Part shown: positions 10,551-34,448 of the stretch, piece after piece
Position numbering within the stretch: position 1 is the stretch's first letter
How the letters are laid out: every line of letters begins with the position of its first letter
The notes under the pieces: generated by a model
Database searches by the model: none
The model's input: only the letters and a program-made list of their open reading frames with translations
Told to the model about the DNA's origin: nothing
Assembly: GCA_002428015.1 (NCBI GenBank)
Contig: DIZW01000042.1
Location: 222 to 64,221 of the forward strand
From: Oxalobacteraceae bacterium UBA6018
Lineage (GTDB): Bacteria > Pseudomonadota > Gammaproteobacteria > Burkholderiales > Burkholderiaceae_D
DNA length: 64,000 bases
Reading direction: 5' to 3'
Made by a program: the position numbers and the translations under genes

Positions 10551-10585
10551 TTGACTTTGTCCAGGGATATTTGTTATCGTTAACT
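10551..10585 (+). promoter_or_regulatory. sigma70 promoter (TTGACT-N18-TATCGT, extended -10 TG) overlapped by operator TGTTATCGTTAACT (10572-10585)
   Basis: -35 at 10551-10556, TG at 10572-10573, -10 at 10575-10580; same TTGACT-N18 layout as the dgoK promoter. Confidence 0.65.
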
Positions 10586-10586
10586 T

Positions 10587-10730
10587 GTTGATGCGATGCC
10601 GGATGTACGGGCATTTCATCGGCCTTAGGATGGCAGCTCGCGCCGCAGTCCTAATGGCGTTGGTCTCTTCCGCGGGGTGGGGTCTCCTCCCGCGTTCGAC
10701 CCGCTCCCTCAGACGGGGCGGGTTTTTTTT
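10587..10730 (+). ncRNA. Candidate small regulatory RNA (~145 nt) with duplicated anti-SD seeds
   Basis: Lies between two minus-strand genes yet has a plus-strand promoter and a plus-strand terminator. Contains stem-loops (ATGCC/GGCAT, TTAGGA/TCCTAA) and the repeats GGTCTCTTCC (10662-10671) and GGTCTCCTCC (10681-10690). No RBS-led ORF is apparent. Confidence 0.6.
10699..10730 (+). terminator. Rho-independent terminator of the candidate sRNA
   Basis: Stem ACCCGCTCC (10699-10707) / GGGGCGGGT (10715-10723) running into T8 on the plus strand only. Confidence 0.8.
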
Positions 10731-10862
10731 CGCCGCTGCGGCGCGCGTCATGCTCATGAGAAGGGGCGTACCGCCGGGCCGCCGTTCTGCCGCCATTGTT
10801 CAAGCCCGTGGCCGCGCCGCAGCGCTCATCGGGGACGAGCCGGCTCCAGCGGACCGTGCTGG

Positions 10863-23264: not shown

Positions 23265-26200
23265 TTACAGTCCCGTGTCCAGCGTGAGCCCCATCAGCCC
23301 GATCACGACGTCATTGGCGAGCGCGCGCACGGTCAGGCTCTTCAACTGGCGGGACGGGTCGAGCGCTACCTCGACCACGGTCGCGGCGCCGCCCTCGACC
23401 GCGCGTCCCGCGCCCTTGAACGTGGCCGGATCGAGCACACGCACGCGCGCCGTCTTCAGGTCCACCCGCACCGGCAGGCGGCCGCACAGGGGAAACTGGT
23501 AGTCGTCGACGAAGTAGTCTTGCTCGATCGGCCACCAGTTTTCCGGGTTGCGCAGCGCCGTGCGCGCCTGGCTGCCGTCGGCGTACGTGATCACGATTTC
23601 GCCGTTGTCGATCCGGCTCTGCATGAAGTTGGTGGAGCCGGCCATCAGCAGGAAGGCGCGGCGCGCCTGGCCGTGCAGCGCAACGGTCGCGGCGCGTGGA
23701 TAGTTATCCCATTGTGAAGTGAAGACGACGTTGTCGCCCGCGCCAGCCGGGATGGCGAAGCGCAAGCCGTTCGGCAGGGCCAGCGTGCCGCCCAGCGCGC
23801 GCAGGCCGCCATCGTCGATGGTGGGCAGGGTGTTCAGGTGGCCGGCCCAGGCGCCGATGCCTTGCGCCGGCAGAGCCAGCGTGACGTAAGGCGCGCGCGG
23901 TGCCTGGTACTTTCCTTCCTCGAAAATGGCGCTCACACGGTCGTTGAACCAGGGCGCAAGGTCGACCGGCGCGGCGCCGATGGGGGCGCCGCCGGTCCAG
24001 TCCGGGCCGAGCAGCGCGCAGCCGCCGGCGTCGCCGTCGGCCGCCTCCGCCGGGCCTTGCCACCAGCTGAAGTCGCCCTGGCGCACTTGCCTGAAACCGT
24101 CGCGCGTGGCGCCGGTGGCGCCGCCACCGGACCGGGCGTCGGGCTCGGCGCCGCCCCATGCGACGTCAATCCTGGCCGGATGGGCGAACGGCACGTCGAT
24201 GCGCAGCCTGGGCGCGCCCACGGCGTCGGGCTCGGCTTGCCAGGCCACCGGCCGGCCGTCGAACCGCACCTGCGCCACCTTGGCGCCGCGGGCCGGCAGC
24301 ACCAGGACCAGGCGTTTGAAGCGCGCGCCGCTCTGGCTGACGGTCCAGCTGTCTTGCCTGCCGGTGCGGCGGTAGGACAGGACCAGGTCCGGATGCGTGA
24401 GCGTGGCGTGGTCCCATGCCGCCGGCAAGCCTGGGCGCAGCGTCAGCACGCCGGCCAGGGCGTCCGGCCGCACGCCGAACAGGCCTTCGACGATGGCGCG
24501 CGACATCACGCCGATGCCGTCGGCGAAATCGCGCTGCGCTTCGCGCCGGTAGACGTCGAGGTAGTTCAGCGTGCCGATGTTTCCTGGGCTGACGCCCATG
24601 TAGAGGCTGGCCAGCATGGCGCCTTTGGCGATGTCGTACGCGGTCTCGGCGCGGCCCGCCTGCCAGTACGCCAGGGCCGTGTGCAGGTTCTCGTCCAACA
24701 CGACGTTGTTGATCGACCAGGAGTAGGGCATCCAATCGGTTTCAGCGAGCAGGTGGTAGGGGCGGTCGGCGGGAACGCCGGGGCCGGTCACGGGGATGGC
24801 GCGCAGGTGGCGGTCAAGATCGGCGGCCATGCGCGCCGCCTCGAACGCGGTCGGCACCCGCGAATCGATGGTGTGATAGAAGGTCCACAGGCCGTAGCTC
24901 GGGTGCAGCGGCGCGCCTCCCAGCAGGTCGCGGTATTCGGCGAACGCGCCGCGCTCCGGCATCCATAGCTGTTGGCGCATGGCGCGCCCGATCGCGTCGG
25001 CTTCGCGCTGGTAAGGTGCGGGATCCTTGCCGATCAGGCGGGCGATCCGCGCCGCCATCGTGTTGTGCCAGGCGTTATAGGCCGACGCGTGGGTCACGCC
25101 GCCGCCGTCGTAATACAGGTCGTCGCTGGCCCAGATGGCGGCGTAGGCGTCATACAGCGGCAGCCGATCCGGGCCGAAGGGGCGCCGGAACAGCCTGCGT
25201 TCCCAGGCCAGGTGGCGCTCGAGCACGGGCCAGACCTCGCGCGCGTAGGCGACATCGCCCGTCCACAGCAGGTGGCGCAGCAGGGCGTCGATGAACACGA
25301 GGTTCATGTCATAGTGCGAGCCGCTCATGGCGCCGTTCGAATGCAAACCTGGTTCGTTGCGCGCGAGCTTGGCCTTGGGGTCGGCGCCCGGCGGTCGCGA
25401 CGGGATCGGGGAGCTGTCCTGGCGCGGCGTCCACACGCCGAAATTGGCGCGCGCGCGATCGTGCCACCCCAGCGCATCGAGCGCGTACGGGCCGCGCCAG
25501 CCGAGCAGCTTCATGCGCCAGGCGATCGCGCCGTGCATGATGGCGTGCTGCTCCTCGTCCCAGACGGCGTCGGCGGCCACGTTGAGCGCCCCCATGGCCG
25601 CGTTCAGCCAGGGATCGGGCGTGTCCACGCGCACCCGGTCGCGCAGCAGGGCGAAATGGGCGCGGGCCTCGGCGAAACGGCGCGCCAGGTCGGCGCCGGC
25701 TAGGCGGGCGAGCAAGGCTGGGCCGGCGTGCGGCGAGCCAGGCGTCGTCTTCGGCGGCGCCAGCGCCGTGACCTGGAGCGCGAGATCGATCGTCTGCTCG
25801 CCCAGCGGCACGGTACCGACCATCACCGCCGGGCCGGGGCCAGCGGCCGAGGACAGCAAGGCCGCCGGGTCGTCCCACAAGCGGGCGTCGGCCAGGCGCA
25901 GTTGCGCGGCGCCGCCGACGGTCGCGCTGACGGTCGCGTGCCGGCCGGCCGCCACGAAGCCGTGTTCGTCCAGCTCATAGCGCGTGTCGCGCGCGAAGTC
26001 GGGCTTGAACTGGAAGAACTGGCTGATCGGCACGCGCTCGCTGCCGATGTCGCCGCCGCGCTGCCCCTTCTGGCCATTGCCCGGGCCGAAGGCGAACACC
26101 AGTTCGGCGCCCGCGGGCAGGTGCTCGCCGCGCACCTGGACGCCCAGGCCTTCGGTGGCGGCATAGGCCACAGCGGCCAGGTGGAGGCGTCCCTGCGGCC

Positions 26201-26588
26201 CCAGCAGCGGGTCGGCGATCTCGTACAGCAGTTCGCCCGGCCGGTAACGCATGGAGATGTTGGCGGCCGCGTGCAGCCAGGTCGTGCCGGCCGCGGTGCG
26301 CAGGCCCAGCCGCAGGTTGCCGCCGCGTCCGGGCAGGTACAGCGAGAACTCCGGCCGGTCGCCGCCGTCGACCCGGAACGCGTCATTGCCGCCGTACAGC
26401 GAGCGGTTGAAAAACTCGGTCCCGTTCTCGATGACGAAATCTTCGCCTTCCGGGTGATAACGCAAGGGCTGGGCCAGTTGGCCGCGCAGGTTAGGATGCA
26501 GCGCGGCGTTACGGGTTTCGGGCGAATCGTCCGCGTGGGCCAGACCCAGGCAGAGGGTGATCGAGATGAGGGGAAAGAGTTTTTTCAA
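23265..26588 (-). CDS. Large secreted putative glycoside hydrolase (DUF4450-like N-terminus, six-hairpin-type middle, C-terminal beta-sandwich)
   Basis: TTG start and signal peptide. LRYHPEGEDFVIENG..FNRSLYG..GDRPEF recalled as DUF4450-like; AIWASD, HYDMNLVFID, DFADGIG in the catalytic-looking region. Family assignment is from memory, not a search. Confidence 0.65.
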   Translation of the reverse strand: MKKLFPLISITLCLGLAHADDSPETRNAALHPNLRGQLAQPLRYHPEGEDFVIENGTEFFNRSLYGGNDAFRVDGGDRPEFSLYLPGRGGNLRLGLRTAAGTTWLHAAANISMRYRPGELLYEIADPLLGPQGRLHLAAVAYAATEGLGVQVRGEHLPAGAELVFAFGPGNGQKGQRGGDIGSERVPISQFFQFKPDFARDTRYELDEHGFVAAGRHATVSATVGGAAQLRLADARLWDDPAALLSSAAGPGPAVMVGTVPLGEQTIDLALQVTALAPPKTTPGSPHAGPALLARLAGADLARRFAEARAHFALLRDRVRVDTPDPWLNAAMGALNVAADAVWDEEQHAIMHGAIAWRMKLLGWRGPYALDALGWHDRARANFGVWTPRQDSSPIPSRPPGADPKAKLARNEPGLHSNGAMSGSHYDMNLVFIDALLRHLLWTGDVAYAREVWPVLERHLAWERRLFRRPFGPDRLPLYDAYAAIWASDDLYYDGGGVTHASAYNAWHNTMAARIARLIGKDPAPYQREADAIGRAMRQQLWMPERGAFAEYRDLLGGAPLHPSYGLWTFYHTIDSRVPTAFEAARMAADLDRHLRAIPVTGPGVPADRPYHLLAETDWMPYSWSINNVVLDENLHTALAYWQAGRAETAYDIAKGAMLASLYMGVSPGNIGTLNYLDVYRREAQRDFADGIGVMSRAIVEGLFGVRPDALAGVLTLRPGLPAAWDHATLTHPDLVLSYRRTGRQDSWTVSQSGARFKRLVLVLPARGAKVAQVRFDGRPVAWQAEPDAVGAPRLRIDVPFAHPARIDVAWGGAEPDARSGGGATGATRDGFRQVRQGDFSWWQGPAEAADGDAGGCALLGPDWTGGAPIGAAPVDLAPWFNDRVSAIFEEGKYQAPRAPYVTLALPAQGIGAWAGHLNTLPTIDDGGLRALGGTLALPNGLRFAIPAGAGDNVVFTSQWDNYPRAATVALHGQARRAFLLMAGSTNFMQSRIDNGEIVITYADGSQARTALRNPENWWPIEQDYFVDDYQFPLCGRLPVRVDLKTARVRVLDPATFKGAGRAVEGGAATVVEVALDPSRQLKSLTVRALANDVVIGLMGLTLDTGL

Positions 26589-26627
26589 GCTGCACCTGGA
26601 CTAGACGATTCGACGAAGCCGCAAATC

Positions 26628-26664
26628 AAAAAAAACTGTGTGCGCGCACTTGTCGCGAACACAG
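26628..26664 (-). terminator. Rho-independent terminator between the TonB receptor and the 26588 gene
   Basis: Minus strand CTGTGT-T-CGCG..CGCG-C-ACACAG followed by T8. Confidence 0.7.
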
Positions 26665-26713
26665 CCCAAAGGAGATCGGTTCAGCGCCGCCGCCGGCGCG
26701 GTGGCGGTCCAGG

Positions 26714-26810
26714 CCACGCCCGCTGCCACCTGCGCCGTCCGTGCGCCTGGCAAGCCAGACCACACCCGCCGCCTGCGCCAGCCGTGTGCCTGGCTTGCCG
26801 GCGGGCGTGG
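26714..26810. repeat. Nested inverted repeat (REP-like, possible mRNA-stabilising hairpin) directly after the TonB receptor stop
   Basis: CCACGCCCGC (26714-23)/GCGGGCGTGG (26801-10), GGCAAGCCAG (26749-58)/CTGGCTTGCC (26790-99), CACAC/GTGTG. Confidence 0.6.
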
Positions 26811-26818
26811 GCCGCCGC

Positions 26819-29800
26819 TTAGAGGGTACGGAAGTTCACGCCGACCATGATGCGCCTTCCCGCATACGCGTAGTCGAGCAGGTTCGGGGTGCCATCGGAG
26901 AACGGCGTGAACTGGCGCTGGCTGTGCGAGGTGGTCACGTTGCCCAGGTTGCGCCCTTCGATGAAGACTTCGATCTGCGGCGTCCACTTGTAGGAGACCT
27001 TGCCGTCGATGAAGCGGGTGGCGTCCGTGAAGTTGGGCGAGCCGGGGTTGTACGGCATGCCGGTACGGCCGCCGCCGACGTTCGGGTAGTTCAGCATGCT
27101 CGTCGACTTGCCGCAGGCGGCGATGCAGTTGAAGTAGGAGTCGACGGCCTGCACGGCGATCCGTGCCGACAGCCGGCCGTCGTCGTACCACAAGGCCAGG
27201 TTGTACGTGTAGTTGGACTCGTTTTGCGGCGGCAAGGGCGTGCCCGTCAGCAGGTCGACGATATTCACCGTCGTCGTGGCCGAGTGCATCTTCGTGTAGT
27301 TGGCGTCGAAGCCGGTATAGCGCAGCAGCCAGGGCAGGAAGGTGAACGCGGTCTTGGTGCTGAACTCGAGGCCCTTGCGGCCCGTCGTGGCGCCGTTCAT
27401 CCAGGTCGAATAGTCGAACAGCGCCTGGCCCAGGGACACGCCGGTCGCGGGATCGACCAGGTTCGTGTTGGCGAACAAAGGCGAACGCGACACGCCTTCC
27501 GCGATCGCGGGGCCGATCTTGCCCTGCTGCCTGAAGGCGGCGATCGATACCATCGTATCCTTGTTCGGATAGTACTCGAGCGACAGGTTTTGGTTGACGT
27601 TCTTTTGCGCCTTCAAGGCCGGGTTACCCACGGTGCCAGAGCATTTTTGCGGGTCGTCCCCCTGGCCGGCGAGGACCTCGTTATACGTGCACGAACCGGA
27701 CGCCAGCAGGCGCGACACGGGAGGGCGGGCGACGGTCTTGGCCACGCTGTAGCGCAGCACCAGCTGGTCCGGCAGCACCCAGGTGGCCAGGTTCAAGCTG
27801 GGCAGGATGTCCGTCGTCTTGGCATCGGTCTGGGTGCTTTGCTGTACCGTGGTGGTCGCCGTGCCGCCGGGCGCGTCCGGGATGTCGGGATTGAAGTTCG
27901 CCGTCTTGGTGATGGAGGTGAAGCTCATCATGCCGGTCCCGTGGACCCGGGTGCGCACGTAGCGCACGCCCACGTTGCCTTCCACATCCCAGCCGAAGGG
28001 CAGGGCGCGGTCCGTGAACGGGATGTGGTCCAGGCCGAAGTCGCCCATCAGGTAGAACGCGTCCGAGCGTTCCTTGAGGTGCTGGGCCGGCTGGTCGTAG
28101 ACCTTGCCGTCGTTGGCGGTGCACTGCTTGACGCAATTGAAGTCGGTGTTGGGAATATTCACCAGGCCGAACAGCTTCTCGACGTCGATCTGGGTCCAGT
28201 TGTCGATCAGGCCGGATGGACGGCCTTTGGCGCCGTAGAAGAATTGCGTCGGTGTGGCCTTCAGGGTCATGGTCTGCTTCAGGAGGGAAGCGAACTGATC
28301 CATCGTCAAGACGGTGGCGCCATCCATCGCCTTGCGGATATCGCCTTTCGGAATCCAGCCGTACACGCATGCGTTGCCTCCGGCCGCCAGCGAGCCGGGC
28401 GTATCGGCGCAGCCGTACATGGTGCTGCGCAGGGTCGGCGAGGGCATCACGAGCGGCGCGACGTAGCCGGCCGTCCCGAACGTGCCGACCGGATTGCGCA
28501 GGACGTAGCCGCCGTTGTTGACGTTCCAGTTGTCATTGCGCGTGTCGCGCAGGTTGTAGCCGGTCTTGAAGCGCTTGAAGAACGGGACCGAATCGGGCGT
28601 CGCCCAGGTGACGTCGATTTTTGCGGTGCGCTCCTCGTTGAAGAACATCGTCGGGACCCAGGTCAGGTTCGGCGAGGACGTGACCGCGTTCTGCTGGGCG
28701 GCCGTGTAGGCGGGGGCGCGGGTGCTGGTGTAGGTGGTCGGGACCACGGCCGCGCTCGCGCCGACCGGGTAGAGCTTGGCGAAGCGGGACAGGTCGGAAT
28801 TGTCGGTCGGGTTAAAGCCCGGGAACGTGTAGCCCCACAGGCCGTTGGGCAACACCTGCAGCGTGCCGGAGCCGTAATAGTCGTTCAGCGTCAGGTCCTT
28901 GACACCCTTCTTGAAATTGGACCGTGCGTCACCGATGAAGAACTCCGAGGTCAGCCCGCCGCGCCTGAAGGCGCCGCCCAGTTGCAGGTAGCGCGCGGTG
29001 GTCACGCCGATGCCATGGCTCTGGCCGGTCTTGGCCACGCCATTGCTGTTGGTATTGTCGAAGGTGTATTTCAGCAGGTGGTGATCGGCGTCGACGACGG
29101 CGGAGCCCGGCTCTACGTTGGCCACGCCGTTCTTCACGCTGAAGTTGCCCATCGAGAAGGACAACGAGTTGATGTCATCATGGCGCTTGTTGTAGCTGCC
29201 CTTGGCGTACACGGTGAGCTCGTCGTTCACCTTGAAGTCGGCGCGCAGGTCGAGGTTCTGGCGGCGGTCGATCTCGCGCCTGACGACGTAGCGCGGGCCC
29301 GACGGGGTGTAGTCATTCCACTGGTTCAGGCAGGTGCTCAGTTCATTGCTGCGCTGGCTCTGCGCGGCGCTGCGCGATGACGCCGAGATCGCATTGAGCT
29401 GGGCCGCGGCCAGGGCGGGAAAGGCCGCCTGGCAGTCGGCCTTGCTCTGGGCGGCGGCCGACCTGGTGATCAGATCGAACGGCGTGGCCGAGTTGAAGGA
29501 GCCGCCGCCGACCAGCGGCGACTGCAGGATCGGCGTGGCGGTCGACGCGTCGGCCCGGTTGACCGTGCCCGGCTGGAAGCTGAAGGTCTTCTGCGGCGAG
29601 TTGTCGAAGTCGAACAGGCGGTAATAGCCCTGGTTGCCGCCGCCGGCCACCTCGGCCAGGTGGCCTTCGTTGTCCAACGTGGTGGTGGAGGCGTTGAGCA
29701 GCAGGCCCAGGCGCCCGTTCATGAACTTGTTCGCCAGGATCAGGTTGGCGTCCGGCTCCCACTTCTTGTTCAGGCTGCCCTGGCTGGCGGCCATGCGCAG

Positions 29801-30763
29801 CGAGGCGAACGGCTTCTTGAAGTCGAGGCCGGTGCGGGTCTTGATCTGGATGCCGCCGCCGAGGGCGCCTTCGGTCATGTCCGCGGTCGAGCCCTTGATC
29901 ACGTCCACGCTCTTGATCAGGTCGGCGGACAACTGGCGGAACTCGACGGCGCGGCCATCGCCGCCGCCGGACATGTCGCTGCCGCCGGCGGACTGGACGG
30001 CCTGGCCGTCGAGTTCGACCCGGGTCAGTTCGGGGCCGTTGCCGCGCACGGAGGCGGTGACGCCCTCGCCGAAGTCGCCCCGGTCCAGCGCGACGCCGGC
30101 CATGCGCGAGATCGCCTCGCCGACGTTACGGTCGGGCAGGGAGCCCACGTCCTCGGCGACGATCGAATCGATCGCGGTGGCGGCGTTCTTCTTGCGCTCG
30201 ATACTCGATTGCTGGGACGCGCGCGTGCCCACCACCATCACCTGCGTCACCGGGCCGGTACTGCCCGGCGCCGCCTGGACCTGCTGATCCGTGCCCTGTG
30301 CCTGCGCCAATGGCGCGCCCATCAACATGACCGCTGCCGATACCGCACAACAGGTCGCTTTTCGTTGGCTGGGAATATCTGATTGTTTCATCGTCTCCTC
30401 CGTCATCTTTGAATCATTCGACGCGTTTTCTCGCTCGCCCGGGGGCCGCTTCAAAATCACGACGGTGCCGCTAGTGCTGACCCTACCGACCAGGTTGGTA
30501 CCTTTAAGCAATCGGTCGACTGCCTCGGAGATGACGAACGTGCCCACCAGTGCATTGGCCCTCACGCCATCCAGAACATCGGCCGCGGCCAGGACGTTAA
30601 CGCCGGCCTGTTTCGCAAACTCCGCAATGGAATGCGTCGCTGCGCCCGCCGGTATGTTGAATGCTTGGGGGACTTCCTGGGAATGCGCGGCGCCCGCGTG
30701 AGCTGCCATGCCCACGGCCAGGACGATGCCCGCCTTCCCGGTATATTCATGCAACTGGGTCAT
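26819..30763 (-). CDS. TonB-dependent receptor with N-terminal STN signalling domain; internal in-frame start at 30391
   Basis: Signal peptide, STN-like AFNIPAG..SIAEFAKQAG..LLKGT, TonB box VMVVGTR, plug DSIVAEDVGSLPDRNVGE..VIKG, C-terminal RRIMVGVNFRTL. Confidence 0.93.
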   Translation of the reverse strand: MTQLHEYTGKAGIVLAVGMAAHAGAAHSQEVPQAFNIPAGAATHSIAEFAKQAGVNVLAAADVLDGVRANALVGTFVISEAVDRLLKGTNLVGRVSTSGTVVILKRPPGERENASNDSKMTEETMKQSDIPSQRKATCCAVSAAVMLMGAPLAQAQGTDQQVQAAPGSTGPVTQVMVVGTRASQQSSIERKKNAATAIDSIVAEDVGSLPDRNVGEAISRMAGVALDRGDFGEGVTASVRGNGPELTRVELDGQAVQSAGGSDMSGGGDGRAVEFRQLSADLIKSVDVIKGSTADMTEGALGGGIQIKTRTGLDFKKPFASLRMAASQGSLNKKWEPDANLILANKFMNGRLGLLLNASTTTLDNEGHLAEVAGGGNQGYYRLFDFDNSPQKTFSFQPGTVNRADASTATPILQSPLVGGGSFNSATPFDLITRSAAAQSKADCQAAFPALAAAQLNAISASSRSAAQSQRSNELSTCLNQWNDYTPSGPRYVVRREIDRRQNLDLRADFKVNDELTVYAKGSYNKRHDDINSLSFSMGNFSVKNGVANVEPGSAVVDADHHLLKYTFDNTNSNGVAKTGQSHGIGVTTARYLQLGGAFRRGGLTSEFFIGDARSNFKKGVKDLTLNDYYGSGTLQVLPNGLWGYTFPGFNPTDNSDLSRFAKLYPVGASAAVVPTTYTSTRAPAYTAAQQNAVTSSPNLTWVPTMFFNEERTAKIDVTWATPDSVPFFKRFKTGYNLRDTRNDNWNVNNGGYVLRNPVGTFGTAGYVAPLVMPSPTLRSTMYGCADTPGSLAAGGNACVYGWIPKGDIRKAMDGATVLTMDQFASLLKQTMTLKATPTQFFYGAKGRPSGLIDNWTQIDVEKLFGLVNIPNTDFNCVKQCTANDGKVYDQPAQHLKERSDAFYLMGDFGLDHIPFTDRALPFGWDVEGNVGVRYVRTRVHGTGMMSFTSITKTANFNPDIPDAPGGTATTTVQQSTQTDAKTTDILPSLNLATWVLPDQLVLRYSVAKTVARPPVSRLLASGSCTYNEVLAGQGDDPQKCSGTVGNPALKAQKNVNQNLSLEYYPNKDTMVSIAAFRQQGKIGPAIAEGVSRSPLFANTNLVDPATGVSLGQALFDYSTWMNGATTGRKGLEFSTKTAFTFLPWLLRYTGFDANYTKMHSATTTVNIVDLLTGTPLPPQNESNYTYNLALWYDDGRLSARIAVQAVDSYFNCIAACGKSTSMLNYPNVGGGRTGMPYNPGSPNFTDATRFIDGKVSYKWTPQIEVFIEGRNLGNVTTSHSQRQFTPFSDGTPNLLDYAYAGRRIMVGVNFRTL

Positions 30764-30819
30764 GTCTCTGTCTCCTGACCTAACCTGATTTTCGGAACTA
30801 TGCTGACCCGTTATAAGTA

Positions 30820-30846
30820 AAGACGCGCGGCGTTCCGGTTTTCCTC
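30820..30846 (-). promoter_or_regulatory. Candidate ECF-sigma promoter GAGGAAAA-N13-CGTCTT upstream of the TonB receptor
   Basis: Near-identical motif GAGGAGAA-N12-CGTCTT occurs upstream of the sigma gene. Confidence 0.55.
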
Positions 30847-30998
30847 GGATATCCGGGGCGACGACGTCATTCGCTCAACAATATGATCGGAGCATAGGGG
30901 GGCGTCCCATCGGCCGACGCGAACGACACCGGGGCCGCGGGCGATTGAGCCCGCCGTTGCAGGGGGAGGTGACGCGGACGGTGCGAACAGTCCATCCG

Positions 30999-31973
30999 TC
31001 AGATGGCGCGGGGATGGGATTGGCTTGCCTGACCAATGAGGATCTTCTCCGCGGTGACGACAACCGGCACATCCAGAATCGTGCTGACGTCTTTTGCGAA
31101 CAATTCAGGCGCGTCCAGCTGATACTGGCCTATCAGGCGTTTGTCGCGCAGCGCGGGATCGACGATCACGATGGTCTTGGCGCTGTAGCGGTTGAAATCG
31201 GCGACCGCTTCGTCCAAGGTTTGACGGGCCAGGACCAGTTTGCCTTCGCGCCAGGCCAGCCTTCGGTTGACCTCGTCGGGCTGGCGCGTCACGGGAATCG
31301 ACTTGGCGTGCCGCGCCAGGAAGGCGTGTTCGCCCGCTGTTACCAGACACCGTTGGGCGCTGCCGGCCTTGCTCCAGACTTCGACCGTACCTTCCGTGAC
31401 CAGCACTTCCGACCCGGCCGCCAGGCGCCGGACGGAAAACGCGGTGCCGACGGCGCGCACCAGCGCGTCGCCCGCTTCGACGATGAAAGGCTTTGATTTA
31501 TCCTTCGCCACCTCGAACCACGCTTCGCCTTGGCGCAGATTGATCCGGCGCTGCTGTGGGGTATACGCCACCTCGACCTGGCTACCGCTGTTGATGCTCG
31601 CGATCGACTCATCCTGCAGCGGCACCCGGCGAAATTCACCTTTCGCCGTGGTCAGCACCGTTCCGGCCTGCATGGCCGAGTAGCCCAATTTGCCGGCCAT
31701 TGCCACCACGCTGGCGGCCAGGCCGCCGAGGATCAGGTTTCTGCGCTTGGGCGCCGGGTGAGCGCTCGTGAATTCTCCTGGATTGGCAGGGAAGGCGCTG
31801 TCGCCGGCCGCCAGGCGCAGCGCGTTATGCATTGCCATGGCCCGGGCATACGCGCCCAGATGCCTGGTGTCGGCCTCGCACCACGCGTCCAGTTCCGCTA
31901 TTTCCGCCTCATTCAGGCCGCGCGCATGTTTGCGCACGACCCAGGTGAAGGCTTGGTTATCTATCGTTGACAT
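30999..31973 (-). CDS. FecR-family anti-sigma factor
   Basis: QAFTWVVR..AELDAWCEAD..HLGAY N-terminus, TM helix, TTAKGEFRRVPLQDES, GEAWFEVAKD, AVGTAFSV, AWREGKL. Confidence 0.93.
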   Translation of the reverse strand: MSTIDNQAFTWVVRKHARGLNEAEIAELDAWCEADTRHLGAYARAMAMHNALRLAAGDSAFPANPGEFTSAHPAPKRRNLILGGLAASVVAMAGKLGYSAMQAGTVLTTAKGEFRRVPLQDESIASINSGSQVEVAYTPQQRRINLRQGEAWFEVAKDKSKPFIVEAGDALVRAVGTAFSVRRLAAGSEVLVTEGTVEVWSKAGSAQRCLVTAGEHAFLARHAKSIPVTRQPDEVNRRLAWREGKLVLARQTLDEAVADFNRYSAKTIVIVDPALRDKRLIGQYQLDAPELFAKDVSTILDVPVVVTAEKILIGQASQSHPRAI

Positions 31974-32556
31974 TGCTCGTCTTCACTGCACGTTTGGTTG
32001 TGGCGCCTGGGCGCTTTTCGTGCGCTGGCCGCATGCCATGCTTGGAAATCATTTCCGACATCAGCCGCATGGCTCTCATCATTTCATGTTCGACCACGCT
32101 GTCGGTCAGGCCCAGGGTATGCGCGGTCTCGTCCTGCGACATGCCGTGCACGCGGCGCGCGCGAAATACCGACTTGCACCGGTCGGGGAGGTTGGCGATC
32201 AGGCCGAACACCCATTTCAACTCGTCCCGTGCGAAGACCACGCGCTCCGGCGACGGGGCGGTGTCCGCGATTTCCAGTTCATCCAGATTGGCCATGGTTT
32301 CGATGCTGACGACCGCGTCCCGCCGGATACGGTCGAGCACAATATTCTTCGCCGTGCGAAAGACGAAGGGCTTGGGGTTGCGCACATGGTCGAGTCCCTG
32401 CATGAGGAGGATCTTGCAATAAGCTTCCTGGATCACATCATCTATCTCCGCGGCGCTATTGCAGACCCGGCGCAGCATGCGGCGCAATTCCGCCTCGTGG
32501 GGCAGAAAATGTAGGGTCAGCCAGTCGACGACCTCGTTGTCCATCCGCTTGCTCAT
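31957..32556 (-). CDS. ECF RNA polymerase sigma-70 factor (FecI-like)
   Basis: DDVIQEAY, FRTAKNIVLDRIRR, LPDRCKSVF..GMSQDETA; overlaps the fecR-like gene by 17 nt. Confidence 0.93.
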   Translation of the reverse strand: MSKRMDNEVVDWLTLHFLPHEAELRRMLRRVCNSAAEIDDVIQEAYCKILLMQGLDHVRNPKPFVFRTAKNIVLDRIRRDAVVSIETMANLDELEIADTAPSPERVVFARDELKWVFGLIANLPDRCKSVFRARRVHGMSQDETAHTLGLTDSVVEHEMMRAMRLMSEMISKHGMRPAHEKRPGATTKRAVKTSNVNDR

Positions 32557-32574
32557 CCGTGGTCCCTCTCTGTT

Positions 32575-32600
32575 AAGACGAACGCCATGAACTTCTCCTC
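32575..32600 (-). promoter_or_regulatory. Candidate ECF-sigma autoregulatory promoter GAGGAGAA-N12-CGTCTT
   Basis: Matches the motif at 30820-30846; both are followed by WAC. Confidence 0.5.
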
Positions 32601-32630
32601 AAGATTTTCTTAAAAGCCCGGCCGGCTCTG

Positions 32631-34448
32631 TCACGCCGAAAATGTTTTGTTGATGACCTTGCCTGCGATGGTCACGTTGCTCAGCACCACGTTGCGGGCG
32701 TTGTACAGGTAGATCGGCTCCTTGCCGTTGCGCGGCGTGCCGAAGTCGCTATCGGTGATCGTCACGTTCGACACCGGCGGGATCGGGGTGCCGGGCGGTC
32801 CGTTGAAACTGGCGGCGACCGGGCCGAGGATGAGCAGCGCCTGCCAGCCGGAAAACTCGCCGTCCGCCATCCTGACGTTGTTGGCGCGCAGGTTTGAAAT
32901 GTGCACCTCCGACACCACGGTCGGGCGGGTGCGCACGCCGTCGTCTTCTGCCGCGTAGTTGCAGTCGATCGTGACGATCGCCCCGGCGCCCGTTGCCAGG
33001 CCCTTGAACGGCTTGTCCGGGTCCGGCGGCGCCACCTTGCGTGCGCGCGCGTCGACCCCGTTGGGCAGGACCACGTCGCGCACGTACAGGTGGCGCAGGA
33101 AGCCGCCGCGGTTCATGTTGGCTTTGAGGCGGATCGCCGAACCCAGCGGAGCGGTGGACCAATGCGCGTTGCGGAACTCGATGCGCTGCGCGTACACGTG
33201 CTCGATCCCGCCGGCCATCTCGCTGCCGAGCGTGATGCCGCCATGGCCGCTGTTCATCACGCTGTCCTGGATGACGACGTTGCGCGTCGCCCCGTACTGG
33301 GTGTCGCGGTCCTTGCCGGACTTGATGGCGATGCAGTCATCCCCCGTGTTGAAGGTGCAGCGCTCGACCAGCACCGTGTCGCAGGATTCGGGATCGAAGC
33401 CATCGTTGTTCGGTCCCAGGCTTTCCATGTTCACCCCACGGATGCGCAGGTTGCGGCAGTCGACTGGGTGGTGCTGCCAGAACGGCGAGTCGGCCACCTG
33501 GTAGCCCTCGAGCACGACGTCGTTGCAGCCGATCAGTTCGATCATGCAGGGGCGCAGGTGGTGGCCGATGCCGAAGATGCGCTGCGCGACCGGGACCCCG
33601 GCTTCCGAGAGCGCGGGAAGGTAGCGCGGGTCGCCGTTCCAGCGCGGGTGGGTGCCCTGGATCCGTGCGCGCTGCTCCGCCGTCAGCGCCGGCGCCACCG
33701 ACTCCAGCGCCGCGTTGAGCGGGTTGGCGGTGGCCGCGTTGACCTGGCCTTCCTTGCGGTCGACCCAGTCCCACCACGGGCCGGCGCCGGCGTCCACGTG
33801 CACGCCGGCCTGGCCGTTGAGCACGCTGGTCCAGTCCTCGCCGGTCAGCGCGATATTCGACGCGTTGCGGGCGTACACCAGCGGCGAATAATTGAGCAGG
33901 TCGTTGCCCTGCCAGCGCGACAGCACCAGCTTGCCGGCCTTGCCGCAGTCGACGTCGCCGTACTTGGCGTAGTGCGCAGGGTCGGCGCTGAAGTAGACCT
34001 GGGCGTTGGCCGCCAGGTGCACGTGCACGTTCGAGCGCAGCACGATCGGCCCCTTGCAGTGCCAGCTGCCGGCCGGGATCAGCACGCGCCCGCCACCGGC
34101 CTGGCTGGCGGCGGCGATGGCTGCGGCGATCGCCGGATAGCAGTCGGGGGCGCCGGCGGCGGGCGTCTGCACCTGCCTGCGCGCGTTGCGCCAGACCGAT
34201 TCGGCAGGCACCAGCGCGCAGCGCTCGGCGCCAAACGCGGTGATCGGGAAATCCACCTTGGGGAAGGTGAGCGGCCGCGAGCAGCGCTCGACAATCTGGC
34301 GCGCGCGCTCCCATGGATCGCCCGGGGCGGCGGCTGCTCCGGCCGACGTGGGCGCGGCCAGGGCGAGCGGCAGCGTGCCGGTCGCCAGCAGGGCGCCGGC
34401 CGCCGTGGTGCCGCGCAGGAAACGGCGGCGTTGTGGATCGTTTGTCAT
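32631..34448 (-). CDS. Tat-exported GH28 polygalacturonase
   Basis: Twin-arginine leader QRRRFLRG; NNDGFDPES, GDDCIAIKSG, GHGGITLGSE, IRLKA motifs; start ATG 34448. Confidence 0.92.
   Translation of the reverse strand: MTNDPQRRRFLRGTTAAGALLATGTLPLALAAPTSAGAAAAPGDPWERARQIVERCSRPLTFPKVDFPITAFGAERCALVPAESVWRNARRQVQTPAAGAPDCYPAIAAAIAAASQAGGGRVLIPAGSWHCKGPIVLRSNVHVHLAANAQVYFSADPAHYAKYGDVDCGKAGKLVLSRWQGNDLLNYSPLVYARNASNIALTGEDWTSVLNGQAGVHVDAGAGPWWDWVDRKEGQVNAATANPLNAALESVAPALTAEQRARIQGTHPRWNGDPRYLPALSEAGVPVAQRIFGIGHHLRPCMIELIGCNDVVLEGYQVADSPFWQHHPVDCRNLRIRGVNMESLGPNNDGFDPESCDTVLVERCTFNTGDDCIAIKSGKDRDTQYGATRNVVIQDSVMNSGHGGITLGSEMAGGIEHVYAQRIEFRNAHWSTAPLGSAIRLKANMNRGGFLRHLYVRDVVLPNGVDARARKVAPPDPDKPFKGLATGAGAIVTIDCNYAAEDDGVRTRPTVVSEVHISNLRANNVRMADGEFSGWQALLILGPVAASFNGPPGTPIPPVSNVTITDSDFGTPRNGKEPIYLYNARNVVLSNVTIAGKVINKTFSA

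What the first reader, a model, noticed from the sequence alone, without database searches (positions are those of the whole stretch)
26819..30763. One gene, two TonB receptors: internal RBS, ATG and second signal peptide after the STN domain
After the N-terminal signal peptide and STN domain, codon 125 (30391) is preceded by GGAGGAGACG and begins a second complete signal peptide, MKQSDIPSQRKATCCAVSAAVMLMGAPLAQA-Q, followed by the TonB box. The gene could yield a 1314-aa signalling isoform and a 1190-aa transport-only isoform, or record the fusion of an STN module onto an older receptor. The first 124 codons look less GC3-biased by eye. The internal RBS is also the best in-window match to the candidate sRNA seed, which would allow isoform-specific control.
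Basis: partly seen in the sequence, partly recalled or inferred. Interest (0 to 1): 0.8.

Follow-up and report, generated by a model that had tools for sequence, protein, structure and literature searches.

The report
Receptor gene with embedded second start
A pectin-locus outer-membrane signalling receptor gene of an Oxalobacteraceae bacterium still carries, between its signalling domain and its transport part, the complete ribosome-binding site, start codon and export signal of a plain receptor, so one gene may make both a signalling and a transport-only receptor; this has not been shown by experiment.

Summary
The gene at 26819-30763 (-) encodes SP1, an STN domain, a linker, GGAGGAGACG-ATG (codon 125), a signal-peptide-like segment H2 (cleavage AQA|Q), a TonB box, a plug and a barrel. 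It lies behind an ECF sigma/FecR pair in a pectin locus.

SD+ATG alone is at chance level. The support comes from comparison.
- The Met+H2 element occurs in 37 of 64 STN-bearing relatives, down to 37-50% body identity.
- It evolves at the rate of working signal peptides in STN-less paralogues.
- In all 15 orthologues it lies in the lowest-GC3, nearly least-structured mRNA stretch of the gene.
- Natural deletion derivatives (L018, L094, P0031) keep the same promoter and leader, have lost STN, and use this ATG and H2 as their only start and signal peptide.
- Other lineages have deleted the element and are pure transducers.
- Six unrelated STN receptors, one from Verrucomicrobiota, show the same layout.

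Best reading: an old fusion onto a complete pre-receptor whose internal initiation region is still maintained, most likely giving two isoforms (about 0.5). A tolerated relic remains possible.

The sRNA link is not supported. GC3 is lower as claimed (0.73 vs 0.91), but this is not exceptional. No expression data could be obtained.

The parts
31957..32556 (-). ECF (FecI-like) sigma factor gene
   Evidence: Pfam Sigma70_r2 and r4_2; NCBIfam sigma70-ECF at 66 bits
30999..31973 (-). FecR-like anti-sigma / sigma regulator gene
   Evidence: Pfam FecR 72.9 bits and DUF4880 31 bits
30817..30846 (-). Putative ECF-type promoter GAGGAAAACC-N-CGTCTTTAC, followed by the conserved leader AACGGGnCAGCATAGTTCCG
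   Evidence: Read. Conserved in L001, L002, L018 and L094, including in front of the STN-less derivatives. Its function is inferred.
30761..30776 (-). First Shine-Dalgarno (AGGAGA, 30771-30776) and ATG1 (30761-30763)
   Evidence: SD pairing -7.4 kcal/mol here and about -9.5 in orthologues.
30680..30763 (-). SP1: first signal peptide, residues 1-28, predicted cleavage AHS|QE
   Evidence: Sequence. The AQE motif is nearly invariant in 21 homologues. No SignalP was available.
30440..30673 (-). STN signalling domain, residues about 31-108
   Evidence: Pfam PF07660 at 28.0 bits; FecA N-terminus hit over residues 14-99. AF2 pLDDT is 70-81 with beta-alpha-beta elements. Codon-position diversity of 0.18/0.10/0.42 shows purifying selection.
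30392..30439 (-). Hydrophilic linker that doubles as the internal translation-initiation region; SD GGAGGAGAC lies at 30393-30401
   Evidence: Lowest GC3 of the whole gene across 15 orthologues (0.54 against 0.875). A-ending rare codons are conserved. The 51-nt window centred on the ATG has MFE -4.8 against a gene mean of -14, rank 23 of 1297. Homologous to the 5' UTR of the STN-less genes L018, L094 and P0031.
30389..30391 (-). Internal in-frame ATG (codon 125)
   Evidence: A Met is present in 37 of 45 relatives that have H2. It is the only start of L018, L094/P0032 and P0031. NCBI annotation chose it as the start in three genomes (P0034, P0042, P0052).
30299..30391 (-). H2: second signal-peptide-like segment, residues 125-155, predicted cleavage AQA|Q
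   Evidence: n-region carries K126, R134 and K135. Its hydrophobicity equals that of working signal peptides of STN-less paralogues, and the Hessa sum is about +3, so it is not a membrane anchor. P131, R134 and A140-A144 are invariant in 21 sequences. Codon-position diversity is 0.18/0.08/0.45.
30248..30298 (-). Unconstrained low-complexity spacer, residues 156-172
   Evidence: Diversity of 0.46/0.51/0.57 at codon positions 1, 2 and 3, with many indels
30221..30247 (-). TonB-box-like strand TQVMVVGTR, residues 173-181
   Evidence: V175, V177 and V178 are nearly invariant and R181 is invariant. The TIGR01782 match starts at residue 174.
29855..30193 (-). Plug domain, residues 191-303
   Evidence: Pfam PF07715 at 48.5 bits
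26819..29854 (-). Large beta-barrel (TonB-Xanth-Caul type) and stop codon
   Evidence: TIGR01782 at 406.6 bits over residues 174-1312

Best explanation
The gene encodes a glycan-type TonB-dependent transducer, the outer-membrane sensor of an ECF sigma/FecR cell-surface signalling system in a pectin/rhamnogalacturonan locus.

It arose when an SP1-STN module was joined in frame to the 5' leader of a complete pre-receptor gene. The old leader, Shine-Dalgarno, ATG and Sec signal peptide (H2) now lie between the STN domain and the TonB box.

This internal initiation region is still maintained. Most likely ribosomes start at two sites. ATG1 gives a 1314-aa precursor that is exported via SP1; H2 is too weakly hydrophobic to stop transfer and ends up as a periplasmic linker. 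ATG125 gives a 1190-aa precursor in which H2 acts as a normal cleaved signal peptide. Its mature form begins at Q156, lacks STN, can transport and cannot signal.

Shown: the anatomy, the homology, the conservation, and natural derivatives that rely on each start alone. Inferred: that both starts are used in this organism, and that the ratio of the two forms matters.
For: (1) Anatomy and context.

(2) Homology to real N-termini. The STN-less genes L018, L094/P0032 and P0031 have the same promoter and leader. They then run directly into the same linker, RBS, ATG and H2. L094 keeps 57 nt of STN remnant in frame. In these genes the 'internal' start and H2 are the only start and the only signal peptide.

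(3) Conservation. Met+H2 is present in 37 of 64 STN-bearing relatives. This includes deep homologues with 37-50% body identity and 39-49% STN identity, in which H2 is still 64-88% identical.

(4) H2 evolves at the same rate as the working N-terminal signal peptides of STN-less paralogues, 0.50-0.80 against 0.53-0.78 identity in matched body-identity bins. It has the same hydrophobicity. The codon pattern shows protein-level purifying selection, while the stretch after the predicted cleavage site is unconstrained.

(5) Nucleotide-level marks of an initiation region. The seven lowest-GC3 windows of 1281 lie at residues 116-120 in 15 orthologues. A-ending rare codons are conserved, although 4-fold sites are near saturation in deep pairs. 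The window centred on the ATG ranks 2-33 of about 1300 for weakest mRNA structure in all 15 orthologues.

(6) In this genome the internal SD (-9.5 kcal/mol, 5-nt spacing) is stronger than the SD of ATG1 (-7.4).

(7) NCBI annotation chose the internal start in three genomes, although the full ORF was verified open in D. callida (L001/L004) and in L009 for P0042, and for P0052 only in a sibling strain (L015).

(8) The design is resolved in both directions in nature. Some lineages have pure transducers with the element deleted, in two cases next to a separate STN-less receptor (L002, M. terrae L087). Others have STN-less receptors.

(9) A FecA mutant lacking the signalling domain is fully transport-competent (Harle 1995, as cited in PMC11658791).

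(10) The same layout recurs in 6 unrelated STN receptors among 41 full-length representatives, one of them from Verrucomicrobiota.
Against: No protein, ribosome-profiling or RNA data exist.

SD+ATG is at chance frequency in the window.

The strong SD is confined to the WIN/L003/L004 clade and its deletion derivatives L018 and L094. Twelve of 15 orthologues have a weak SD.

Twenty-seven of 64 STN-bearing relatives lack the Met or H2, so a short isoform is dispensable.

A shallow clade (L021, L031, P0025, P0028) keeps H2 without the Met, which hints that H2 may be retained for another reason.

Loss of the initiation region happened mostly by deletion, so there is no gradual-decay clock. L014 is the one point-mutated intermediate.

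Related sequences are not independent, so the counts overstate the support.
Confidence: 0.5

Rival explanations
1. Silent relic. The fusion is real, but only ATG1 is used. H2 and the old RBS are translated as a harmless periplasmic linker. They persist because deletion is the only easy way to lose them, and because the N-terminal region tolerates AT-rich codons.
For: The element has been deleted or has degenerated in 27 of 64 STN-bearing relatives without loss of the gene. An own-genome paralogue, L084, joins STN directly to the TonB box. Most orthologues have a weak SD. The whole of codons 1-124 has lowered GC3, as do some other genes in the window. H2 has a positive predicted insertion energy, so it would pass through SecYEG harmlessly.
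Against: H2 is more conserved than the STN fold and the barrel at deep divergence, and it shows the codon pattern of strong protein-level selection. The adjacent spacer is free to vary, so the linker as such is not constrained. The minimum in GC3 and in mRNA structure sits exactly on the Met in all 15 orthologues, and low GC3 persists there in the 4 deep homologues although synonymous sites are near saturation.
Confidence: 0.28
2. H2 has a role inside the full-length protein. It could be a hydrophobic helix that tethers or positions the STN domain, contacts FecR, TonB or a chaperone, or slows export. The internal Met and RBS would then be incidental.
For: The five consecutive invariant residues AVSAA, together with P131 and R134, go beyond what a generic signal peptide needs. 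The clade L021, L031, P0025 and P0028 keeps H2 after deletion of the Met-bearing linker. H2 is Leu-poor and rich in Ala, Met and Cys, unlike the paralogues' signal peptides.
Against: AF2 gives a lone low-confidence helix (pLDDT about 35) with no docking. Working signal peptides of STN-less paralogues are just as conserved and share the AVS.A motif. The Met-less clade is very shallow. Many functional-looking transducers lack H2 entirely. This reading does not explain the nucleotide-level marks of an initiation region.
Confidence: 0.12
3. Mis-annotation. The true gene starts at ATG125, and the upstream 124 codons are not translated here.
For: NCBI annotation calls the internal start in three relatives. 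The Pfam STN score is 0.4 bits below the gathering threshold.
Against: The ORF is open and the STN part shows clear purifying selection at codon positions 1 and 2. AF2 folds it with pLDDT 70-81. ATG1 has its own SD and a conserved SP1. The FecR and sigma genes lie directly upstream. A conserved ECF-type promoter lies upstream of ATG1.
Confidence: 0.03

Closest known systems
FecA / FpvA / FoxA-type TonB-dependent transducers (cell-surface signalling with a FecI-like ECF sigma and a FecR-like anti-sigma)
   Same: The order is signal peptide, STN signalling domain, TonB box, plug, barrel. The sigma and FecR genes are adjacent, and an ECF-type promoter lies in front of the receptor.
   Different: [quoted passage not shown] Here about 65 residues intervene, and they contain a complete RBS, ATG and signal peptide. 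The barrel is of the large TonB-Xanth-Caul glycan type. The locus is pectinolytic (GH28, DUF4450), not an iron locus.
STN-less TonB-Xanth-Caul receptors of Oxalobacteraceae (TIGR01782), including P0031, P0032/L094 and L018
   Same: From codon 125 onward the window gene is the same protein. L018 is 83% identical and P0031 84% identical over the stretch from about residue 117-125 into the plug/early barrel, with the same leader, RBS, ATG and signal peptide.
   Different: They lack SP1 and STN. L094 also lacks fecR.
In-frame internal-initiation isoform genes of bacteria (ClpB-93/79, IF2 alpha/beta, CheA-L/S; cited from my own knowledge)
   Same: One ORF and two in-frame starts. The short form lacks an N-terminal regulatory domain.
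   Different: Here each start would be followed by its own Sec signal peptide, so both products are exported. No product has been detected. I found no report of this for a TonB-dependent receptor.
SusC-like transducers of Bacteroidota with an STN domain (glycan-responsive ECF/anti-sigma pairs)
   Same: Glycan-linked trans-envelope signalling through an N-terminal STN domain.
   Different: The phylum and the barrel family differ. I did not test SusC-like proteins for internal signal peptides.

Membership tests
TonB-dependent transducer (cell-surface signalling receptor) | N-terminal STN signalling domain (PF07660) ahead of the TonB box | tested here: met
   PF07660 scores 28.0 bits against a cut-off of 28.4, so it is borderline. 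The FecA model aligns over residues 14-99. Relatives carry PF07660. AF2 pLDDT is 70-81. The region is under purifying selection.
TonB-dependent transducer (cell-surface signalling receptor) | Plug domain and TonB-dependent beta-barrel | tested here: met
   PF07715 at 48.5 bits; TIGR01782 at 406.6 bits against a cut-off of 310
TonB-dependent transducer (cell-surface signalling receptor) | Cognate ECF sigma and FecR-type regulator encoded next to it | tested here: met
   Window 30999-31973 and 31957-32556, same strand. The same synteny is seen in L001, L087, L089 and L090.
TonB-dependent transducer (cell-surface signalling receptor) | Substrate-dependent induction of the sigma regulon through the STN domain | not testable with these tools
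   This needs genetics and reporter assays.
Sec (SPase I) signal peptide, applied to H2 (residues 125-155) | Positively charged n-region, uncharged hydrophobic h-region of about 10-17 residues, small-x-small cleavage motif | tested here: met
   K126, R134 and K135; h-region CCAVSAAVMLMGAPLA; cleavage motif AQA|Q. The Kyte-Doolittle 12-mer value is 2.18 against 2.05 for the paralogues' signal peptides. SignalP was not available.
Sec (SPase I) signal peptide, applied to H2 (residues 125-155) | Sits at the N-terminus of a translated product | tested here: inconclusive
   True for the derivatives L018, L094/P0032 and P0031. Unknown for the window gene itself.
Dual-start (in-frame internal initiation) isoform gene | In-frame start codon with a ribosome-binding site in an accessible mRNA region | tested here: met
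   GGAGGAG lies 5 nt before the ATG and pairs at -9.5 kcal/mol. MFE rank is 23 of 1297.
Dual-start (in-frame internal initiation) isoform gene | Start and RBS conserved among relatives | tested here: inconclusive
   The Met and the unstructured AT-rich context are conserved in 15 of 15 orthologues, and Met with low GC3 in 4 deep homologues, whose mRNA-structure rank is weaker at 108-255 of about 1340. The strong SD is present in only 3 of 15. The element is lost in 27 of 64 STN-bearing relatives.
Dual-start (in-frame internal initiation) isoform gene | Two protein products detected | not testable with these tools
   No proteomic or ribosome data.

The most novel reading that the evidence does not exclude
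Embedding a complete, still active start and signal peptide between STN and the TonB box is a general, recurrent design of TonB-dependent transducers across phyla. Here it appears in 8 of 41 full-length representatives: 2 of the H2 family and 6 unrelated, one of them from an Opitutus MAG. Under this reading, one gene supplies both the few signalling receptors and the bulk transport-only receptors. The start-site ratio sets the gain of cell-surface signalling. Lineages repeatedly resolve the design into two genes, or into one function only.
Probability: 0.25. Interest if true: 0.8.

Novelty: new variant of a known kind. Interest (0 to 1): 0.58.

Why it matters
Cell-surface signalling receptors must both sense and import their substrate. 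It is not known how cells balance the number of signalling-competent receptors against transport capacity.

A conserved internal start and signal peptide would give a simple gene-level answer: two receptors from one mRNA. It would add an exported-protein example to bacterial in-frame isoforms.

It also shows how transducers are built and dismantled in nature. An STN module is joined to the leader of a finished receptor gene, and later deletions remove either the STN or the internal start.

There is a practical consequence for annotation. Pipelines truncate these genes at the internal start, as seen in three NCBI records, which hides the signalling domain.

The claim can be tested directly with a C-terminal tag, N-terminal proteomics or start-site profiling.

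Tried and rejected
(1) I tested whether SD+ATG is significant on its own. It is not: 12 matches against 11.6 expected.

(2) I tested whether H2 is a weakened signal peptide, selected so as not to stop transfer. This is rejected. Its hydrophobicity equals that of the paralogues' signal peptides (KD 2.18 against 2.05, p=0.12; Hessa sum about +3 for both).

(3) I tested whether the lower GC3 of codons 1-124 marks foreign origin. This is not supported, because several other long ORFs in the window show similar N-terminal deficits. Some of those may have over-extended starts.

(4) I first read the high GC3 of Met-less homologues as amelioration. I withdrew this, because the alignment shows that the AT-rich stretch was removed by deletion. 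Only L014 is a point-mutated intermediate.

(5) I tested the sRNA link. The 9-nt complement is real. But the sRNA candidate was not found in 80 family genomes. The only other GGAGGAGACGATG in the genome is not a receptor start.

(6) AF2 on residues 1-320 with 21 sequences shows no docking of H2.

(7) An Rfam scan of 26000-33000 found nothing relevant.

(8) Four literature searches found no report of internal starts or second signal peptides in TonB-dependent transducers.

(10) I looked for a rule that transducers lacking H2 always have an adjacent STN-less receptor. It holds for L002 and M. terrae, but not for P. aquatica or G005. It is therefore only a tendency.


Full report
**1. What is there**

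The ORF at window 26819..30763 (-) is 1314 aa. Its domains are as follows.
- Pfam finds STN at residues 55-105 with 28.0 bits, against a gathering score of 28.4.
- Pfam finds Plug at residues 191-303 with 48.5 bits.
- NCBIfam TIGR01782 (TonB-Xanth-Caul) covers residues 174-1312 with 406.6 bits.
- The FecA model aligns with residues 14-99.

Directly upstream on the same strand lie a FecR-like gene (30999-31973) and an ECF sigma gene (31957-32556). A GH28 gene lies beyond them, and a DUF4450 protein lies downstream. This is therefore a FecIRA-type cell-surface signalling unit inside a pectin/rhamnogalacturonan locus. The closest named relatives are from Massilia, Duganella and Pseudoduganella, all Oxalobacteraceae.

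The sequence ...AAG ATG ACG GAG GAG ACG ATG AAA... places GGAGGAGAC at 30393-30401 and ATG125 at 30391-30389. The peptide that follows is MKQSDIPSQRKATCCAVSAAVMLMGAPLAQA|QG. A variable spacer comes next, then TQVMVVGTR.

**2. Is it more than chance?**

GGAGG-N4-9-ATG occurs 12 times in the window against 11.6 expected, so the RBS and ATG alone carry no weight.

Within the gene, the internal SD pairs with the anti-SD at -9.5 kcal/mol. That is the best of the 26 in-frame ATGs, lies in the top 1.3% of in-frame positions, and is stronger than the SD of ATG1 at -7.4.

The real evidence is comparative.

**3. Homology to genuine N-termini**

The 5' UTRs of other STN-less paralogues, read in frame, give MEETM, LEETM or METTM before their start. 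GGAGGAGAC-ATG is therefore the ordinary RBS of this receptor family.

Three STN-less genes have the same promoter and leader as the window gene:
- L018, from a MAG;
- L094, which encodes P0032;
- P0031, in L002.

The shared upstream sequence is CCGATCATATTGTTGAGCGAATG ... GAGGAAAACC-N-CGTCTTTAC ... AACGGGnCAGCATAGTTCCG. In these genes it runs directly into AATTCAAATATAACGGAGGAGACAATGAAAAAATC... This matches the window's internal AATGATTCAAAGATGACGGAGGAGACGATGAAACAATC....

L094 fixes the direction of change. After the leader it keeps ATG1 (MTRLH) and a 57-nt STN fragment (EFRKQAGINIPAAADIPDG), then the linker, all in frame over 123 nt. fecR is reduced to remnants. L018 has lost the whole module.

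These STN-less genes are therefore deletion derivatives. In them the 'internal' RBS, ATG and H2 are the only start and the only signal peptide. By homology, the element is a competent initiation region and export signal.

Gene finders see it the same way. NCBI calls the internal start in three records: D. callida (P0034), a Massilia MAG (P0042) and Massilia CFBP 13647 (P0052). The full STN-bearing ORF is nevertheless open in D. callida (L001/L004), in L009 for P0042, and in L015, a sibling strain of the P0052 genome.

**4. Conservation**

I classified 64 STN-bearing relatives.
- 37 have Met plus H2.
- 8 have H2 without the Met.
- 19 have no H2.

In a 21-sequence alignment with 53-85% identity, P131, R134 and A140-V141-S142-A143-A144 are invariant.

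Against four deep homologues (L089-L092), body identity is 37-50% and STN identity 39-49%, but H2 identity is 64-88%. All four keep a Met with low-GC3 codons around it. L089 even keeps GAA GAG ACA ATG AC.

Nucleotide diversity at codon positions 1, 2 and 3 was as follows.

| Region | Position 1 | Position 2 | Position 3 |
|---|---|---|---|
| H2 | 0.18 | 0.08 | 0.45 |
| STN | 0.18 | 0.10 | 0.42 |
| Spacer after the predicted cleavage site | 0.46 | 0.51 | 0.57 |

H2 and STN are thus under protein-level purifying selection, and the spacer is free to vary.

When pairs are matched for body identity, H2 evolves at the same rate as the working N-terminal signal peptides of STN-less paralogues, 0.50-0.80 against 0.53-0.78. 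Those signal peptides share an AVS.A core with H2. H2 is also equally hydrophobic, and its predicted insertion energy is positive, so it should pass through the translocon rather than anchor.

**5. Nucleotide-level marks of an initiation region**

Mean GC3 across 15 orthologues is 0.875. The seven lowest 15-codon windows of 1281 all start at residues 116-120, with values of 0.54-0.60. Nine AT3-rich columns cluster at residues 110-129.

The third-position A is kept even where the amino acid changes, for example ATA, GTA, GCA and ACA at residue 120. Meanwhile 4-fold sites in the body approach the identity expected from composition in deep pairs: 0.52-0.64 against 0.39-0.48.

The 51-nt window centred on the ATG folds at -1.4 to -5.6 kcal/mol, against a gene mean of -14 +/- 5. 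It ranks 2-33 of about 1300 in every orthologue.

There are three caveats.
- Homologues without the Met lack the AT-rich stretch because it was deleted, not because it decayed. L014 is the one point-mutated intermediate.
- The strong GGAGGAG is limited to WIN, L003, L004, L018 and L094. The other 12 orthologues have GGAAGAG or GGATCAG, pairing at -3.2 to -3.5 kcal/mol.
- In the four deep homologues the ATG-centred window ranks only 108-255 of about 1340 for weak structure.

**6. Evolutionary pattern**

In a tree of receptor bodies, three kinds of gene interleave within the window gene's clade:
- STN plus H2 forms;
- STN forms without H2;
- STN-less forms, with either an H2-type or a canonical signal peptide.

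N-terminal modules are therefore gained, lost or exchanged repeatedly.

Two loci carry the 'two-gene' version, in which a transducer without H2 is followed in tandem by an STN-less receptor. These are L002 (P0026 followed by P0031) and M. terrae L087. This is not a rule. The window's own genome also has a transducer paralogue without H2 (L084).

**7. Generality**

I searched 1.84 billion representatives with residues 1-185. Of the 41 full-length STN-bearing hits, 8 have a Met plus a signal-peptide-like segment between STN and the TonB box or plug.
- Two belong to the H2 family.
- Six are unrelated in sequence. Examples are P0173 ...NMKKQTNATGKFLAGLLAVLGTASAPNVSAQ|E, P0174 ...PMKKRISLALLAGWLIAGTPAATAQ|S, P0148, P0214, P0155 and P0266.

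P0174 comes from a Verrucomicrobiota (Opitutus) MAG. There, the window on the internal Met ranks 14 of 1144 for weakest structure, although no SD is present.

**8. Mechanism**

Best reading (about 0.5): both starts are used.
- ATG1 gives the transducer. SP1 is cleaved and STN lies in the periplasm. H2 is translocated as a linker.
- ATG125 gives a pre-receptor whose H2 is cleaved at AQA|Q. The result is a receptor without STN.

FecA lacking its signalling domain is fully transport-competent but cannot regulate (Harle 1995, as cited in PMC11658791). A short form should therefore transport without signalling.

The rivals are as follows.
- A silent relic (about 0.28).
- A role of H2 inside the long form (about 0.12). 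This is hinted at by a shallow clade that keeps H2 without the Met, and by the invariant AVSAA. AF2 shows only an undocked low-confidence helix.
- Mis-annotation of ATG1 (about 0.03). This is contradicted by selection on STN, by SP1, by the promoter and by the FecR context.

**9. The sRNA add-on**

The candidate at 10551-10730 contains GTCTCTTCC and GTCTCCTCC. The internal RBS is the only other GGARGAGAC in the window. However, 0.6 matches are expected by chance. The candidate was not found in 80 other genomes of the family, whereas the internal start is conserved across genera. I do not regard isoform-specific sRNA control as supported.

**10. Limits**

No SignalP, no expression data and no reads were available. 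The relatives are not independent. Four literature searches found no precedent, but the library is incomplete.

**11. Verdict**

The feature is real and conserved. It is a TonB-dependent transducer that still contains the working-looking front end of a plain receptor. It is a new variant of a known kind. It is of moderate to high interest, because it is directly testable and appears to recur across phyla.

Noticed in passing
L001 4521-4901 (Duganella callida SPVG01000005.1) and L001 4641-8573: The public annotation starts the receptor at the internal ATG (P0034, 1190 aa). It also calls a 126-aa antisense ORF over the STN-coding region. The full ORF from MTQLHEY is open, so the STN domain is hidden by the annotation. 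The same truncation is seen in P0042 and P0052.
   Followed up: yes
L094 5528-6003 (JGI 3300057020 contig): This is a dismantled signalling unit. The sigma gene is intact. fecR is reduced to short remnants. SP1 and most of STN are deleted, but ATG1 and a 57-nt STN fragment remain in frame with the receptor.
   Followed up: yes
L087 3789-11355 (Massilia terrae) and L002 992-8579: In both loci a transducer without the internal signal peptide is followed in tandem by an STN-less receptor. In L002 the second gene has its own copy of the ECF-type promoter and leader.
   Followed up: partly
window 30817-30846 (-), and the homologous sites in L001, L002, L018 and L094: GAGGAAAACC-N-CGTCTTTAC and the leader AACGGGnCAGCATAGTTCCG are conserved upstream of both STN-bearing and STN-less derivatives. 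This is probably the ECF sigma-dependent promoter and the 5' leader.
   Followed up: partly
STN-less paralogues, e.g. L028, L029, L043, P0050, P0054: The N-terminal signal peptides of this receptor family are unusually conserved (R-L-S-Y-A-V-S-L-A-L-A-S-L-V-A; 53-78% identity at 45-95% body identity). This suggests an unknown constraint on signal peptides of these large receptors.
   Followed up: partly
G000:C55:2410-5796 (L084): The same genome holds a second FecR-linked STN transducer of the same family. In it, STN is joined to the TonB box by a short linker with no internal Met or signal peptide.
   Followed up: partly
window 10590-10735 (+): The candidate sRNA with seeds GTCTCTTCC and GTCTCCTCC and a terminator-like end was not found in 80 other genomes of the family, including 2 of the same genus.
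   Followed up: partly
L095 2501-5983 (Opitutus sp. MAG, CAMBVX010000154.1): This is a Verrucomicrobiota STN receptor with an internal MKKRISLALLAGWLIAGTPAATAQ after STN. Its STN module has GC3 of 0.84 against 0.61 for the body, the opposite of the Oxalobacteraceae case.
   Followed up: partly
Protein-representative hits P0124, P0126, P0128, P0134 and others (about 100-170 aa): Many very short STN-only proteins were found. They may be contig-end fragments or stand-alone SP-STN genes. I did not examine them.
   Followed up: no
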